From assembly GCF_009914755.1 (NCBI RefSeq), contig NC_060943.1: a DNA stretch of 64,000 nt, one strand, 5' to 3'. Shown one piece after another: positions 18,186-27,200 of the stretch. The notes beneath the pieces were generated by a model. The model did no database searches and was not told the DNA's origin. It was given only the letters and a program-made list of their open reading frames with translations. Numbering within the stretch: the stretch's first letter is position 1; each line of letters opens with the position of its first letter. The stretch is from the human T2T-CHM13v2.0 reference genome, Homo sapiens. The position numbers and the translations under genes were made by a program.

Positions 18186-21100
18186 TCATTCTATTTCCTT
18201 TTGGGGAGGCACCAAGGCAGGAGTTACTCCTGGGAGCCTCTGAGAGGTGGTATCTGCAGAGAGGGAACCATGGGCACCCTGGGAGTCTAGGTCAGGAGTG
18301 GGGCTCAGGCTGGGCTTTTCTCCAAGCTGACATCCTTTTTGTAGCTCTGCTATGATCTCCTCCAGCAGGTCCATCCTGGGGAGCAGTGAGGCACAGGTAG
18401 ACCTAGGGTTACCTCAGGGATAAAGACCTAGGGTTACCTGGGGTCCTCCCATCCAAGGCCTCGGGTCTCACTTCTGCAGGCTGGAGAAGAGACCTCCTCT
18501 AGTCAGCTCAGTACCGGGTGCCTGCAGGAGAGAAGGCTGGAGCTGCCACCTGGTAGCCATGGTGCTCCAGCGGGCCTGGGAGGGCAGATGGGGCACAGGC
18601 TGAGCTCGGGGTCCTCTGCTTAGCCTGCCCTCGTGGCCTTCCCTGCCAGCAGCCTCCCAGTGTGTGGGAAGCCTCCCTGTGGGTCAGCAGGCTGGGGATG
18701 GGCTCACAGGGCTGGGGCTCCAGCAGAATAACCCTGTGTGTGCGCCGCAGCAGCCCCTGCAGGGCTGGAATCTTGGCTGAGAGCTTCCTCAAACTGTTCC
18801 GCAGAGCTCTGGGTCCCCAGCAGGGAGGCTGAGTCCTAGAGGCTGGAGTTGGAGTGCAGGGAAGGGCCCTGGGGGAAGCAGGGTTGGTTAAGGGTCATAG
18901 GTGAGTGAGGGGACAGTTGGGCGACCCTAAAGTTCCCTGGTCAAAGGAGAGGCAGCCAGGGAACTTCGGGTTGGTGACTCCTGGAGGGCGGGCGGAGGGG
19001 GTCACAGGTTAGCAGTGGGACAGTTGTGCAGGGCTCTGGGGGTATCTGTACTGTTGAGCTGGGCTCCAGGCAGCAGTGCAGGCTGACCCTGGCTGTGGGG
19101 CTGTGGCCAGACCCAGGGCTGGGTCCTGGGCTGGGCCCAGAGCTGCTGCCTAGAGTCAAGCTGCTGCCCAAGTTCCAGGCTGCACCCCTTGGGATCCTGC
19201 TGTGGTCTCTGACCTCAGGAGTCTCAGGCCTGCAGAGAAGGATGGCAGAGAGCTGGCATGGGTTGCCCAGGTGTCCCACAGCTCCCTTGGTCCCCCACAG
19301 CCCCGTCCTGGCTCCTACCTGGCATGGGATGGGGCCTGGGGACATCACAGGGGCCACAGGCCTGGGTGTGGTCTTGGCTCTGTGAGCCACTTGATGTACA
19401 GTTTCTCTGTGGGGACAGACCAGTTGGTCAGCACCTGCCAGCATCCCTTCCTTGCCCTCTAACTTGGTGGGGAACCCTGGGGTGCAGGGGATAGCGTGGT
19501 CCACTCCATTGGGGAGCTCACCTCAGGAGCCATGTCCTGTGGACCGGAGGCTGGGTGTCGGGACACAGGCTTGCCTGGGGTCCCATGGCCACCACCCACC
19601 CCCTGCTGACCTGCCCTGTACCTGGGCCGGGGCCTCCCGCAGTAGGTATCGGGTACTCTGCAGGCTGCCCCAGCGGTCAGCAGGTGCTAGGCCTAGCCCA
19701 GCTCGAATCAGGGCCTGGTAGGGTGCTGGCACCCGGGGCTCCAGGGCCGGACTCTCCCCTGCCTCCAGCTTGGCCTTCACCTCAGGTCCCCCTCTCCCAG
19801 CCCAGGGCAGCTCTCCTGCCAGGAAGCACAGTTAGGGACCCAAGCGGGAGGGTGCCTTCATGGGGTGGGGCGCAGCCACTCACTCACCAGTGAAGACCTC
19901 CTGGATCAGGATGCAGAAGCTGTAGAGGTCTGAGGTGGTGGTGGGCATGTCACCGCAGATCAGCTGAAGTGGCAGCCATGGGTGTAGTTCAGGGGGCGGG
20001 GCAAGCCCTGGGCCTGGGCCTCCCCAGGGGTAGCCCTTCTGCTGCCTGTGGAGCCCAAGGGCCCTGGTGAGCCGACGGCTGCTGGACAGGGACCTGCACC
20101 CGCCACCAGACAGGAAAACTGAGACCCCAGGTCACATAGCCCAGCAGTGGTAGGGCCAGCACCTAGCTCCTATGCCACTCACAGTGCCCCTCTCCACCCC
20201 CACCTCCTCCCTGGGGTCTACAAGACACCACTGCCCATGGCCACGGAGGCTGGAGAACAGGGAGGAGGGGAGCGTGCAGGCCCGAGTCAAGGGGCAGCAG
20301 GCAGGGCAGGCACTCACCTGGGCCGCAGCCAGCGCTGGCGTAGGAGGCGCCTGTGCTCCAGGTGGCCCACTTTAGCCAGGCCTGGCTGCACCAGCTACAC
20401 GGTGTGAGAGCTGAAGCCACTGTGAGCTCGCCAGTGGGCCTGCAGGAACAGCAGGGCCTTTAGCACCTGCTGCAGCAGGGGGCCGGGGCGGCAGGCCCAG
20501 CACAGTCCCAGGTGCCTCCTCACTTGGTCTCGGTGGGTGCAGCACCCCCTGCAGGGAGCCCAGCCACACAGGCTCAAAGAGAAGGCACAGCCCCGACAGA
20601 TCTGCAGAGGGACTCAGTGCCATCAGCAGCAACAGGCCAGGGTGGTGCAGCTTGCTGGGCAGGAGGACAGCAGGCCACTCACGAGCAGGCCCCAGCCACA
20701 CAGGGTGGGAGATGCTCCTGGGCCCAGACTGCCCACCACGTGCCAGGGCAGGCAATCTGCACCTGCCATCAGACAGAGGAAAGACTGATCCCAGGTCATG
20801 CAGCCCAGCAGTGGGAGGGCCAGCACCCACCGCCTACCTCATCCTGGTGCCTTCCACACCCCCACCTCCTCTCAGGCCTACAGGGCATTGCACACACAAC
20901 TGGTACCCACCCACTTTCCAGTGGGGGGATCGCCCCAGCAGGAGGGCTCCATGCCGGGTGCTGGCCCAGAAGTGAAGATTCTGGCCATGACTACGGCCAC
21001 ACACCCTTGTCTTCCGTGGGAGGGCCAACAGGAGGCGGGGCTGGGGGCTGGCACAGGTACCTGCAGTGCTGAAGGTCAGCCAGTAGCACATCTGTCTGGG

Positions 21101-27100: not shown

Positions 27101-27200
27101 CGTTGGGCTAGATAGTGGTCGCCACCTGACTGCCACATGATCCGGCCGGCTGTATGAGCGGGAATCCGAGGTGCTTGAGCACCAGTGGCCTCCCGCAGCG
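18186..27200 (-). pseudogene. Unprocessed TEX14-like pseudogene (ankyrin repeats + pseudokinase); coincides with the lncRNA I recall as LINC01529
   Basis: Minus-strand exons: about 27200-27101, 26266-26092, 22487-22373, 21974-21820, 21743-21589, 21507-21447, 21373-21250, 21153-21061, 20654-20318, 20045-19888, 19815-19622, unresolved low-complexity exons at about 19536-18560, then 18521-18472 and 18375-18186. Peptides are colinear with the TEX14 N-terminal half as recalled ([86 protein letters not shown]). Lesions are listed in the findings. Confidence 0.9.
22980..25800. mobile_element. Alu cluster (including nested Alus) interrupting old L1 ORF2 fragments, inside the large intron of the TEX14-like pseudogene
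   Basis: Alu consensus on both strands. L1 ORF2-like remnants at about 24395-24615 and 24895-24955. Confidence 0.85.

What the first reader, a model, noticed from the sequence alone, without database searches (positions are those of the whole stretch)
18186..27200. Hidden intron-containing TEX14 paralog (ankyrin + pseudokinase) under a 'lncRNA' between ARHGAP33 and PRODH2
Seen in sequence: at least 12 minus-strand exons with splice signals whose peptides chain in order. They read [118 protein letters not shown]|..ALGFGQ|..IPLVDPKELLAAQGEP..TLMAN|LLWMGHKMTV..DVLLADLQHCS|KLHHPGLLLLMA..|..SDLYSFCILIQEVFTG|ELPWAG..PYQALIRAG..DRWGSLQSTRYLLRE. From recall, human TEX14 reads CPVQLGT..LHEYVKQG..KILKKG, VDAVNSLGQTALFVAALLG..YGSDPNH, RCFDGSTPV..LLDAGGDLRLHDERG, IVEFMQRCASHM, SFGFGK, LPVIGEKEVIQADDEP..MVMTN, LVWNG..DLLIAEQEHSS, KLRHPYLLQLMA, SDIYSFSMIMQEILT, IPWKG..PYYDIVKSG..DRTMNLQDIRYILK. 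This is colinear over roughly 500 aa. Inference: the introns and strong divergence from TEX14 point to an ancient duplicated gene that stayed functional for a long time. TEX14 builds germ-cell intercellular bridges and is usually treated as single-copy, so this may be a little-described second family member lost in humans. No single ORF in the track shows it.
Basis: partly seen in the sequence, partly recalled or inferred. Interest (0 to 1): 0.95.

Follow-up and report, generated by a model that had tools for sequence, protein, structure and literature searches.

The report
TEX14BP: dead human TEX14 paralog
This stretch is the decayed human copy of TEX14B, an ancient sister gene of the germ-cell bridge gene TEX14 that is still intact in most other jawed vertebrates, and it is already annotated as the pseudogene TEX14BP.

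Summary
Fifteen minus-strand exons between ARHGAP33 and PRODH2 chain in order into an ankyrin-repeat plus pseudokinase reading; 13 of 14 introns are GT-AG. A lemur ortholog is 37% identical to the same lemur's TEX14 over 532 residues (E 4e-89). All nine introns of the shared part have a same-phase counterpart in TEX14 on chr17.

This is a separate, ancient paralog. In a 34-row tree its clade (bootstrap 100) runs from rays and sharks through lungfish, amphibians, reptiles and marsupials to placentals, beside the TEX14 clade. The human copy is dead, with eight disabling lesions: an out-of-frame ATG, a lost splice acceptor, five frameshifts and a TAG at an invariant glutamine. No other copy exists in the genome.

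What remains open is the family itself. TEX14B proteins lack TEX14's CEP55-binding GPPX3Y motif and carry their own conserved C-terminal motif. I found no paper that describes them.

The parts
27101..27210 (-). First exon of the RefSeq non-coding transcript NR_104176.1. It lies upstream of the ancestral coding exon 1 and is not part of the ancestral reading frame.
   Evidence: Gene table supplied with the finding; donor GT confirmed.
26092..26226 (-). Ancestral coding exon 1 (ATG 26226-26224; N-terminal motif SRFPVELGS...RLLRR; donor phase 1). Lesion 1: the ATG is out of frame with the rest of the exon. There are 8 nt where the orthologs' protein length implies 6 between codon 3 and the conserved Ser-Arg-Phe.
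   Evidence: The ATG frame reads MPSQPFRASQWSWAPRGI and then stops. Of the 15 orthologs in A1, 12 start M-x-S-x-x-x directly, 2 carry the same Met after a longer N-terminus, and 1 (P0019) diverges here.
22373..22487 (-). Exon 2 (ankyrin repeat: VQVDGENSEGQTALFLSALLGHGSAMQLLLAFGAKPN). Acceptor phase 1, donor phase 2. No lesion seen.
   Evidence: Pfam Ank E 0.0017, 19 bits, below the 21.1 cut-off on this piece alone. TEX14 has the same boundaries and phases.
21820..21974 (-). Exon 3 (second and third ankyrin repeats). Lesion 2: the acceptor dinucleotide at 21976-21975 is AA, not AG. Lesion 3: an 11-nt deletion near 21931 makes the exon 155 nt instead of 166, so [14 protein letters not shown] and [13 protein letters not shown] lie in different frames.
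   Evidence: The TEX14 exon reads CAG|CCGCTGC at its acceptor and is 166 nt long. The orthologs' residue count implies 166 nt.
21589..21743 (-). Exon 4 ([21 protein letters not shown]...). Phase 0 in, phase 2 out. No lesion seen.
   Evidence: Equals RefSeq exon 21589-21743. TEX14 exon 4 has the same phases.
21447..21507 (-). Exon 5 (...RRASQVPALGFGQ). Ends in phase 0. No lesion seen.
   Evidence: The TEX14 exon ends GFGK|GT in phase 0.
21250..21373 (-). Exon 6 (LSSLWPPGLVTGIPLVDPKELLAAQGEPDCTYESSS / TLMA). Lesion 4: a 1-nt deletion near 21265-21264 makes the exon 124 nt instead of 125.
   Evidence: The orthologs read YESSSHTLMAN. TEX14 has the same phase-2 donor in the Asn codon.
21061..21153 (-). 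Exon 7 (LLWMGHKMTVQQPKAPGTQTDVLLADLQHC). It holds the strand where kinases carry the VAIK lysine. No frame lesion seen.
   Evidence: The acceptor equals the RefSeq exon end 21153. TEX14 has the same phase-2 donor.
20318..20654 (-). Exon 8 (core of the kinase-like domain). Lesion 5: a 1-nt insertion in a C run at 20485. Lesion 6: a TAG at 20397-20395 in place of a Gln that is invariant in the orthologs (HAVQLVRPG).
   Evidence: Translation shows SSHTV*LVQPG. Q367 is invariant in 15 of 15 placental orthologs. TEX14 splits this region with one extra intron.
19888..20045 (-). Exon 9 (...PPPELHPWLPLQLICGDMPTTTSDLYSFCILIQEVFTG). Donor phase 1. No lesion seen. The RefSeq transcript uses an upstream acceptor at 20118.
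   Evidence: Pfam PK_Tyr_Ser-Thr E 0.028 on this piece. TEX14 has the same phase-1 donor.
19622..19815 (-). Exon 10 (ELPWAGRGGPEVKAKLEAG...DRWGSLQSTRYLLREAPAQ). C-lobe of the kinase-like domain. No lesion seen.
   Evidence: Best non-self match in the human genome is the TEX14 locus (E 8.7e-5). Finds 85 orthologs.
19464..19536 (-). Exon 11 (DMAPEVSSPMEWTTLSPAPQGSPP). The donor GTTAGA is weak. Phase 1.
19319..19406 (-). Exon 12. Lesion 7: a 1-nt deletion near 19395 makes the exon 88 nt instead of 89, so the incoming frame ends in TGA after 19 codons.
   Evidence: Translation reads KLYIKWLTEPRPHPGLWPL*. The orthologs read KLYYEVAPRAKTTPRP.
19052..19229 (-). Exon 13 (Ser/Pro-rich tail). Lesion 8: a 2-nt deletion at its start, so the exon opens GCC TGA.
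   Evidence: Translation reads A*DS*. Sapajus reads QAPETPEVTGHSR and lemurs read QALETPEV. The RefSeq exon runs on to 18708, a region that some orthologs' isoforms also read.
18472..18521 (-). Exon 14 (APGTELTRGGLFSSLQ). Phase 2 out.
   Evidence: Equals the RefSeq exon.
18186..18375 (-). Exon 15, carrying the family's conserved C-terminal motif (K)MDLLEEIIAELQ, and the stop TGA at 18188-18186.
   Evidence: The motif is in 9 of 11 TEX14B-clade proteins and 0 of 9 TEX14 proteins. This exon has no other match in the human genome.

Best explanation
Window 18186-26226 (minus strand) is TEX14BP, the human unitary (unprocessed) pseudogene of TEX14B. TEX14B is the sister gene of TEX14. Both arose by a DNA-level duplication before jawed vertebrates diverged. 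Both keep an N-terminal module of a short conserved motif, three ankyrin repeats and a catalytically dead kinase-like domain.

TEX14B encodes a protein of about 650-1080 residues in rays, sharks, lungfish, amphibians, turtles, squamates, marsupials and most placentals. In placentals the gene lies next to PRODH2 (fused gene models), and its mouse name points to ARHGAP33. In the human lineage the gene lost constraint and accumulated eight disabling lesions. At least six of these are not seen in New World monkey gene models. No TEX14B protein can be made from the human copy.

The promoter region and many ancestral splice sites still work, which gives the non-coding transcript NR_104176.1. That transcript skips or retains ancestral exons and introns, and its longest ATG ORF is 85 aa.

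Shown here: the exon structure, the lesions, the paralogy, the clade membership, the taxonomic spread, and the absence of a second human copy. Inferred: the timing of the loss, purifying selection on the orthologs, and the protein's role as a non-catalytic scaffold. That role cannot work the way TEX14 blocks abscission, because the CEP55-binding GPPX3Y motif is absent.
For: Structure. There are 15 exons and 13 of 14 introns are GT-AG. Eleven exon ends equal RefSeq exon ends.

Lesions. They were read directly from the DNA against 15 placental orthologs. Four were confirmed with the translate tool.

Orthologs.
- Exon 10 finds 85 mammalian proteins of 621 candidates, mostly named 'inactive serine/threonine-protein kinase TEX14-like'.
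- Three of them (pig, desman, brown bear) also carry the proline dehydrogenase domain of PRODH2, and one Mus protein is named 'Rho GTPase activating protein 33, opposite strand'. Both point to conserved synteny.

Domains. The lemur ortholog scores PK_Tyr_Ser-Thr 6.5e-9 (35.9 bits against a cut-off of 23.1) and Ank_2 1.2e-8.

Paralogy.
- Lemur TEX14B against lemur TEX14 gives 37% identity over 532 aa, E 4e-89.
- Human exons 8 and 10 have the chr17 TEX14 locus as their only other match, or their best one.
- Introns 1-9 have a counterpart of the same phase in TEX14. For eight of them the position falls in the same aligned codon.

Phylogeny (34 rows x 575 columns, IQ-TREE careful).
- The TEX14B clade has support 100/98 (bootstrap/SH-aLRT) and the named TEX14 clade 93/93. 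Both follow the species tree from cartilaginous fish to mammals.
- The human reading sits inside the placentals (100/99).
- Four species hold both paralogs: Mobula hypostoma, Rhinatrema, Erythrolamprus and Eulemur.
- Eight marsupial genera have TEX14B.

Relaxed constraint in human.
- Mean difference to 8 non-primates is 27.3%, against 20.0% and 21.4% for two lemurs.
- The human reading differs at 29 of 272 columns that are invariant in 10 orthologs. The other species differ at 2-24 such columns.

Other points.
- No catarrhine TEX14B protein appears among 85 hits or 120 listed hits, although ape TEX14 is listed.
- The longest ATG ORF of the RefSeq transcript is 85 aa.
- There is no second TEX14B copy in the T2T genome.
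Against: - The lesions were called against ortholog proteins and the TEX14 paralog, not against ortholog DNA. Exact indel sizes and positions are therefore inferred from exon-length arithmetic.
- One haplotype (T2T-CHM13) was read, so polymorphism of single lesions was not tested.
- Exons between the lesions are still 79% identical to the lemur protein on 578 shared columns. The loss is therefore not very old, and its date is open.
- Platyrrhine gene models are short or patchy and none covers lesions 1 and 3. Automated models may also repair or splice around defects.
- The locus is transcribed (RefSeq). An RNA-level function is not excluded.
- One paper reports a cell-death phenotype for a cDNA assigned to LINC01529 (PMC10588048, passages read). 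From memory I believe LINC01529 is the former symbol of this locus, but I could not confirm it.
Confidence: 0.96

Rival explanations
1. A functional human protein-coding gene that annotation has missed, that is, the 'hidden gene' reading taken literally.
For: The exons are well preserved, with 79% identity to lemur on 578 columns. Thirteen of 14 introns keep GT-AG. The locus is transcribed (gene table).
Against: There are eight independent disabling lesions, including an out-of-frame ATG, a lost acceptor, five frameshifts and a TAG at an invariant Gln. The longest ATG ORF in the RefSeq transcript is 85 aa, and no ORF keeps more than 62 aa of the TEX14B frame. That transcript also skips exons 1-3, 5-6 and 10-11.
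Confidence: 0.01
2. A processed pseudogene or a recent segmental duplicate of TEX14 itself.
For: The sequence is similar to TEX14, and TEX14 is the only other match in the genome.
Against: Fourteen introns are present, at TEX14's positions and phases. Identity to TEX14 within a species is only 36-47%. The human reading falls inside a separate clade that reaches cartilaginous fish. The tails beyond the kinase-like domain show no similarity: blastp at E < 0.01 gave one hit, just behind the domain.
Confidence: 0.005
3. The locus is a dead gene whose transcript has been taken over as a functional long non-coding RNA in humans.
For: RefSeq classes it as transcribed. TEX14BP appears as a differentially expressed gene in a head-and-neck cancer table (PMC12519442, one table row seen). 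A cDNA assigned to LINC01529 scored in a cell-death screen (PMC10588048, passages), but the link of that symbol to this locus is recalled, not verified.
Against: There is no Rfam family at gathering score in 17500-28000. The transcript is a patchwork of ancestral exons and retained introns, as expected from leftover splicing. No functional study of this locus was found.
Confidence: 0.08

Closest known systems
TEX14 (human chr17q22; testis expressed 14, intercellular bridge forming factor)
   Same: The N-terminal architecture is the same: a short conserved motif, three ankyrin repeats and a kinase-like domain without the catalytic aspartates. The two are colinear over about 510 residues, with 37% identity and E 4e-89 in lemur. 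The intron positions and phases are the same.
   Different: TEX14 is about 1450-1530 aa in mammals and carries GPPxxxY[ILV]PP near residue 790-820. That pattern is in 6 of 10 TEX14-clade proteins tested, and in 0 of 13 TEX14B-clade proteins and 0 of 85 placental hits. According to a 2026 review (PMC13216642, passage read), this motif binds CEP55 and blocks abscission. TEX14B is 650-1080 aa, has its own C-terminal motif, and has Arg where TEX14 keeps the strand-3 Lys. It has one intron fewer in the kinase core and evolves faster: 86% against 94% identity between lemur and squirrel.
TEX14B orthologs annotated 'inactive serine/threonine-protein kinase TEX14-like' (mouse name: Arhgap33os, formerly Gm1082)
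   Same: They belong to the same clade. In placentals they lie next to PRODH2, as shown by fused gene models, and the mouse name places the gene opposite Arhgap33. The exon-by-exon reading is the same.
   Different: The orthologs have open reading frames. The human copy has eight disabling lesions.
Unitary pseudogenes of the human lineage (a class recalled from general knowledge, for example GULOP; no call here)
   Same: It is a single-copy gene that died in place. It keeps its introns and its neighbours, it is still transcribed, and intact orthologs exist in other mammals.
   Different: There is nothing unusual for the class. The one special point is that the lost gene is the only paralog of a gene essential for male fertility.

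Membership tests
TEX14 family (ankyrin repeats + pseudokinase) | N-terminal ankyrin repeats | tested here: met
   Orthologs: Ank_2 at 1.2e-8 to 5e-13, above the cut-off. Human exon 2 alone: Ank E 0.0017, 19 bits, just under the 21.1 cut-off. The lemur protein matches designed and natural ankyrin proteins in the PDB at E down to 5e-43.
TEX14 family (ankyrin repeats + pseudokinase) | Protein-kinase-like domain | tested here: met
   PF07714 scores 6.5e-9 (lemur), 3.2e-8 (Mus), 6.9e-24 (caecilian) and 2.9e-20 (ray), all above the cut-off. The kinase part of the lemur protein matches the PTK7 pseudokinase at 1.1e-5, TAK1 at 1.2e-4 and LCK at 1.8e-4 in the PDB.
TEX14 family (ankyrin repeats + pseudokinase) | Loss of catalytic residues (pseudokinase) | tested here: met
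   The VAIK lysine of TAK1 aligns with Arg in VTVRQL, and this Arg is invariant in the seven non-mammalian proteins of A2. The HRD position reads HGG (placentals) or HRA (others), and the DFG position reads SLE or NLE. These last two were read from the alignments and placed by pattern, which is inference.
TEX14 family (ankyrin repeats + pseudokinase) | Colinear sequence similarity and shared gene structure with TEX14 | tested here: met
   (E 4e-89); intron phases.
TEX14 proper (functional definition: blocks abscission through CEP55) | GPPX3Y CEP55-binding motif | tested here: not met
   The regex GPP...Y hits 0 of 13 TEX14B-clade proteins, 0 of 85 placental hits and 0 in the human reading. It hits 6 of 10 TEX14-clade proteins. 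So this is a relative of TEX14, not a second TEX14.
TEX14B orthologous group | Falls in the TEX14B clade rather than the TEX14 clade | tested here: met
   The careful tree gives the B clade 100/98, and the human reading lies within the placentals at 100/99.
TEX14B orthologous group | Conserved position between ARHGAP33 and PRODH2 | tested here: met
   Human: the gene table. Other mammals: gene models that fuse TEX14B with PRODH2 (PF01619 together with PF07714 or ankyrin domains in pig, desman and brown bear), and the Mus name 'Arhgap33, opposite strand'. This is indirect, because no ortholog DNA was available.
TEX14B orthologous group | C-terminal motif ..DL[LM][EQK]EI..EL.. | tested here: met
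   Human exon 15 opens MDLLEEIIAELQ. The motif is in 9 of 11 B-clade proteins and 0 of 9 TEX14 proteins.
Unitary (unprocessed) pseudogene | Disabling lesions in a gene that keeps its introns and its genomic place | tested here: met
   Eight lesions and 14 introns.
Unitary (unprocessed) pseudogene | No functional copy elsewhere in the same genome | tested here: met
   Three exons were searched against the whole T2T genome. Each found only itself, plus TEX14 for two of them.
Unitary (unprocessed) pseudogene | Orthologs under purifying selection (dN/dS below 1) | not testable with these tools
   No vertebrate coding DNA is held. Protein identity of 86% between lemur and squirrel and 67% between placental and marsupial in the first 520 aa suggests constraint.
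Processed pseudogene | No introns, poly(A) tail, new genomic place | tested here: not met
   Fourteen introns lie at ancestral positions.

The most novel reading that the evidence does not exclude
TEX14B is a working, essentially unstudied gene in most jawed vertebrates. It is a non-catalytic ankyrin-pseudokinase scaffold that shares TEX14's N-terminal module. It lacks the CEP55-binding motif and uses its own conserved C-terminal motif. It was lost specifically on the lineage to humans, at or after the catarrhine stem. If it acts in germ cells alongside TEX14, then mouse, which keeps it as Arhgap33os, and human differ in this pathway.
Probability: 0.6. Interest if true: 0.45.

Novelty: already known. 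Interest (0 to 1): 0.27.

Why it matters
For the human genome this is an ordinary, correctly annotated unitary pseudogene.

The modest value lies in the family. TEX14 is essential for germ-cell intercellular bridges and is normally discussed as a lone gene. A 2026 review of bridge components does not contain the words paralog or pseudogene (PMC13216642, term search).

A sister gene kept from sharks to mice but dead in humans is a cheap and testable lead. First, is the mouse gene Arhgap33os expressed in the germline? Second, does it back up or modulate Tex14? If so, mouse Tex14 phenotypes may not transfer one-to-one to humans. It also adds a dated gene loss to the primate list.

Tried and rejected
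- Pfam on the 14 raw human ORF pieces gave only sub-threshold hits, on 3 of 14 pieces, one of them a chance HTH_17 match. The exons are too short on their own, so I moved to orthologs.
- The whole lemur protein against the PDB was swamped by ankyrin designs. The kinase part alone gave weak but consistent kinase matches.
No fold, fold search or complex was run, and the kinase fold therefore rests on sequence profiles only.
- A retrocopy, a recent duplicate and a missed coding gene were each considered and rejected (see rivals).
- Literature. 'TEX14BP' and 'TEX14B' occur in 1 paper, as a row in a gene table. 'Arhgap33os OR Gm1082' gave 32 papers. Three of the 25 listed hold Arhgap33os, none in its title or abstract. 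The rest hit on Gm1082 as a word start; in the one I opened the hit was Gm10824, a different name. 'TEX14-like' and 'TEX14L' gave none. 'ENSG00000225872' occurs in the same single paper.
- I could not confirm that LINC01529 is the old symbol of this locus. One listed paper did not contain the term in its held text.
- The supplements of these papers were not opened.
- The Saimiri model's start ([10 protein letters not shown]) could not be used to decide whether the exon-3 deletion is shared with New World monkeys.
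Full report
**What is there**

The window is human chr19 (T2T-CHM13). Taken alone, the pieces are too short for Pfam. 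Only 3 of 14 pieces gave any hit at E up to 1:
- a sub-threshold Ank hit on exon 2 (E 0.0017);
- a sub-threshold PK_Tyr_Ser-Thr hit on exon 9 (E 0.028);
- a chance HTH_17 hit.

The decisive step was to search with exon 10. It found 85 proteins (of 621 candidates) at E 1e-19 to 5.5e-50. All named ones are mammalian, and most are called 'inactive serine/threonine-protein kinase TEX14-like'. They run about 650-700 aa when complete and carry precomputed ankyrin and kinase domains.

**Exon model**

I used the intact lemur ortholog P0034 (Eulemur, 694 aa) as a guide (tblastn), together with an alignment of 15 placental orthologs (A1, 72-90% identical to the lemur). I then read every exon in three frames.
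- The result is 15 coding exons, from the ATG at 26226-26224 to the TGA at 18188-18186.
- Thirteen of the 14 introns have GT-AG.
- Eleven exon ends coincide with exon ends of RefSeq NR_104176.1.
- That transcript starts at an upstream non-coding exon (27101-27210) and skips ancestral exons 1-3, 5-6 and 10-11.
- It retains intron 7 (its exon 20318-21153) and runs on past exon 13.
- Its longest ATG ORF is 85 aa, and no ORF keeps more than 62 aa of the TEX14B frame.

**The human copy is broken**

Against the orthologs' reading I count eight disabling lesions.
1. The conserved ATG is out of frame with the rest of exon 1. Its frame stops after 18 codons.
2. The acceptor of exon 3 is AA, and no AG lies in the 34 nt upstream that I read. 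TEX14 has CAG|CCGCTGC at the same place.
3. Exon 3 is 155 nt where both the orthologs' residue count and the TEX14 exon give 166. This puts RCLDGSTPV and LLQAGGDL in different frames.
4. A 1-nt deletion in exon 6.
5. A 1-nt insertion in a C run in exon 8.
6. A TAG at a Gln that is invariant in 15 of 15 placental orthologs.
7. A 1-nt deletion in exon 12.
8. A 2-nt deletion at the start of exon 13, which then opens GCC TGA.

Indel sizes come from exon-length arithmetic against proteins, not from ortholog DNA.

I built a conceptual reading with X at the five breaks that needed one (697 residues).
- It is 79% identical to the lemur on 578 shared columns.
- It has evolved faster than the lemurs. 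Its mean difference to 8 non-primates is 27.3%, against 20.0% and 21.4%.
- It differs at 29 of 272 columns that are invariant in ten orthologs. Other species differ at 2-24 such columns, with Mus at 24.

Three exons searched against the whole T2T genome found only themselves, plus TEX14 for two of them. So there is no second copy, and this is a unitary pseudogene.

**Relation to TEX14**

I fetched 200 kb around the chr17 match and read the TEX14 exons.
- Introns 1 to 9 of TEX14B each have a TEX14 counterpart of the same phase.
- For introns 1, 2, 3, 5, 6, 7, 8 and 9 the intron sits in the same aligned codon. Intron 4 lies in a poorly aligned stretch, and only its phase could be compared.
- TEX14 has one extra intron inside the region that is exon 8 in TEX14B.
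- Within one species, lemur TEX14B and lemur TEX14 are 37% identical over 532 residues, E 4e-89. The similarity ends behind the kinase-like domain.
- The tails show no similarity: blastp at E < 0.01 gave one hit, just behind the domain.

This is a DNA-level duplication, not a retrocopy.

**Age and spread**

A profile of A1 run against 1.84 billion representatives returned many single-stretch hits that cover the whole module. A first quick tree of 53 rows split them into a TEX14B clade, a TEX14 clade and a third, unnamed clade.

Names came from two further searches.
- The TEX14B clade holds Protopterus (lungfish), Lissotriton, Rhinatrema, Geotrypetes, turtles, many squamates, and Mobula, Hemitrygon, Scyliorhinus and Heterodontus (best 120 of 653 listed).
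- It also holds eight marsupial genera (best 120 of 154 listed).
- Mobula hypostoma, Rhinatrema, Erythrolamprus and Eulemur each have both paralogs.

A careful tree of 34 rows x 575 columns gave these supports (bootstrap/SH-aLRT):
- TEX14B clade, 100/98;
- the twelve named TEX14 rows, 93/93;
- both together against four unnamed rows, 100/100.

Each clade follows the species tree, and the human reading lies within the placentals (100/99). Its weak pairing with Mus (82/77) joins two fast rows and should not be read as signal. The duplication therefore predates the split of cartilaginous and bony vertebrates. I saw no bird, crocodilian, frog, teleost or monotreme TEX14B in the listed rows. The lists are capped, so this says nothing about absence.

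**When it died**

No catarrhine TEX14B protein appears among 85 hits or 120 listed hits. Chimpanzee and gorilla TEX14 are listed.

Four New World monkey models exist, but they are short (208-499 aa). At six of the eight lesion sites at least one of these models reads on in the ancestral frame:
- the exon 2/3 junction;
- the exon 6 deletion;
- the exon 8 insertion;
- the exon 8 TAG;
- the exon 12 deletion;
- the exon 13 deletion.

No model covers lesions 1 and 3. Gene models can hide defects, so this is only suggestive. Most lesions probably arose after the split from New World monkeys, and the first hit may be older.

**What the protein would do**

This part is inference.
- The orthologs keep three ankyrin repeats and a kinase-like domain.
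- Where TAK1 has its VAIK lysine, TEX14B has Arg. TEX14 keeps Lys there (VTVKEL).
- The HRD and DFG positions read HGG/HRA and SLE/NLE (placed by pattern).
- It is therefore a non-catalytic scaffold, like TEX14.

It does not carry TEX14's GPPxxxY motif: 0 of 13 B-clade proteins and 0 of 85 placental hits have it, against 6 of 10 TEX14-clade proteins. The four TEX14-clade misses are one lemur and three cartilaginous fish. A 2026 review states that TEX14 binds CEP55 through this motif and so blocks abscission (PMC13216642, passage read). TEX14B therefore cannot act by that mechanism.

It has its own conserved C-terminal motif (..LQKMDLLEEIIAELQ..), found in 9 of 11 B-clade proteins and 0 of 9 TEX14 proteins. 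In the first 520 residues it evolves faster than TEX14 (86% against 94% lemur-squirrel; 67% against 84% placental-marsupial). It still looks constrained.

**Novelty**

RefSeq names the locus TEX14BP, 'testis expressed 14B, pseudogene', and NCBI's pipeline names the orthologs.

In the held library the family is almost absent from print.
- 'TEX14BP' and 'TEX14B' occur in one paper, as a row in an expression table.
- Three listed papers hold 'Arhgap33os', none in its title or abstract. I did not open them.
- 'TEX14-like' and 'TEX14L' give nothing.
- The 2026 bridge review contains neither 'paralog' nor 'pseudogene'.
- Subscription journals and supplements were not searched.

**Verdict**

The object is an already annotated unitary pseudogene. 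The residual interest lies in the unstudied TEX14B family, not in the human locus.

Noticed in passing
window 20318-21153 and 18708-19229: The RefSeq transcript NR_104176.1 retains ancestral intron 7 and reads past the ancestral donor of exon 13. It uses an upstream acceptor (20118) for exon 9. Some orthologs' isoforms also read the stretch after exon 13 (..GPALHSSLQDSASLLGTQSS..ERKFSAKI..), so that part may be an old alternative 3' exon.
   Followed up: partly
L019-L021 (C17:59478990-59481440): TEX14 has one more intron than TEX14B in the kinase core, between ..SVLHER and RSQFPV... Whether TEX14 gained it or TEX14B lost it was not resolved.
   Followed up: no
proteins P0007, P0030, P0044, P0022, P0028, P0053, P0056: Several mammalian gene models fuse TEX14B with the neighbouring PRODH2, or name TEX14B isoforms 'hydroxyproline dehydrogenase'. 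This is either read-through transcription or annotation error. It is useful as evidence of synteny.
   Followed up: partly
tree: The stem of therian TEX14B is long (0.81 changes per column). Placental proteins score much lower on the kinase profile than those of caecilian or ray (36 against 85 and 73 bits), and HRA has become HGG. The mammalian protein had already drifted far from a kinase before the human loss.
   Followed up: partly
protein P0001: An unnamed 404-aa database protein is 88% identical to the human exon-10 ORF and reads through the same intron sequence as the human ORFs. It looks like a gene model made from a close relative's pseudogene. Its origin was not pursued.
   Followed up: no
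window 26500-26999: There is a strong GC skew (+0.54 on the plus strand, GC 0.66) just upstream of ancestral exon 1. It has no tandem array by TRF and gives proline-rich ORFs on the minus strand. It may be a promoter or 5' region, and it is not explained.
   Followed up: no
window 22055-22115: A 20-bp unit repeated 3.1 times (67% matches) lies in intron 2. It is the only tandem array in 18000-27400.
   Followed up: no
window 18124-18178: ARHGAP33 (plus strand, ends at 18124) and TEX14BP (minus strand, ends at 18178) lie tail to tail, 53 bases apart. This fits the mouse name 'Arhgap33, opposite strand'.
   Followed up: no
unnamed proteins P0199, P0191, P0222, P0223, P0225, P0189, P0196, P0210, P0187, P0190: A third, well-supported clade of TEX14-like ankyrin-pseudokinase proteins (1147-1681 aa) lies outside both TEX14 and TEX14B. 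Their organisms are not known to me, and they served only as an outgroup.
   Followed up: no
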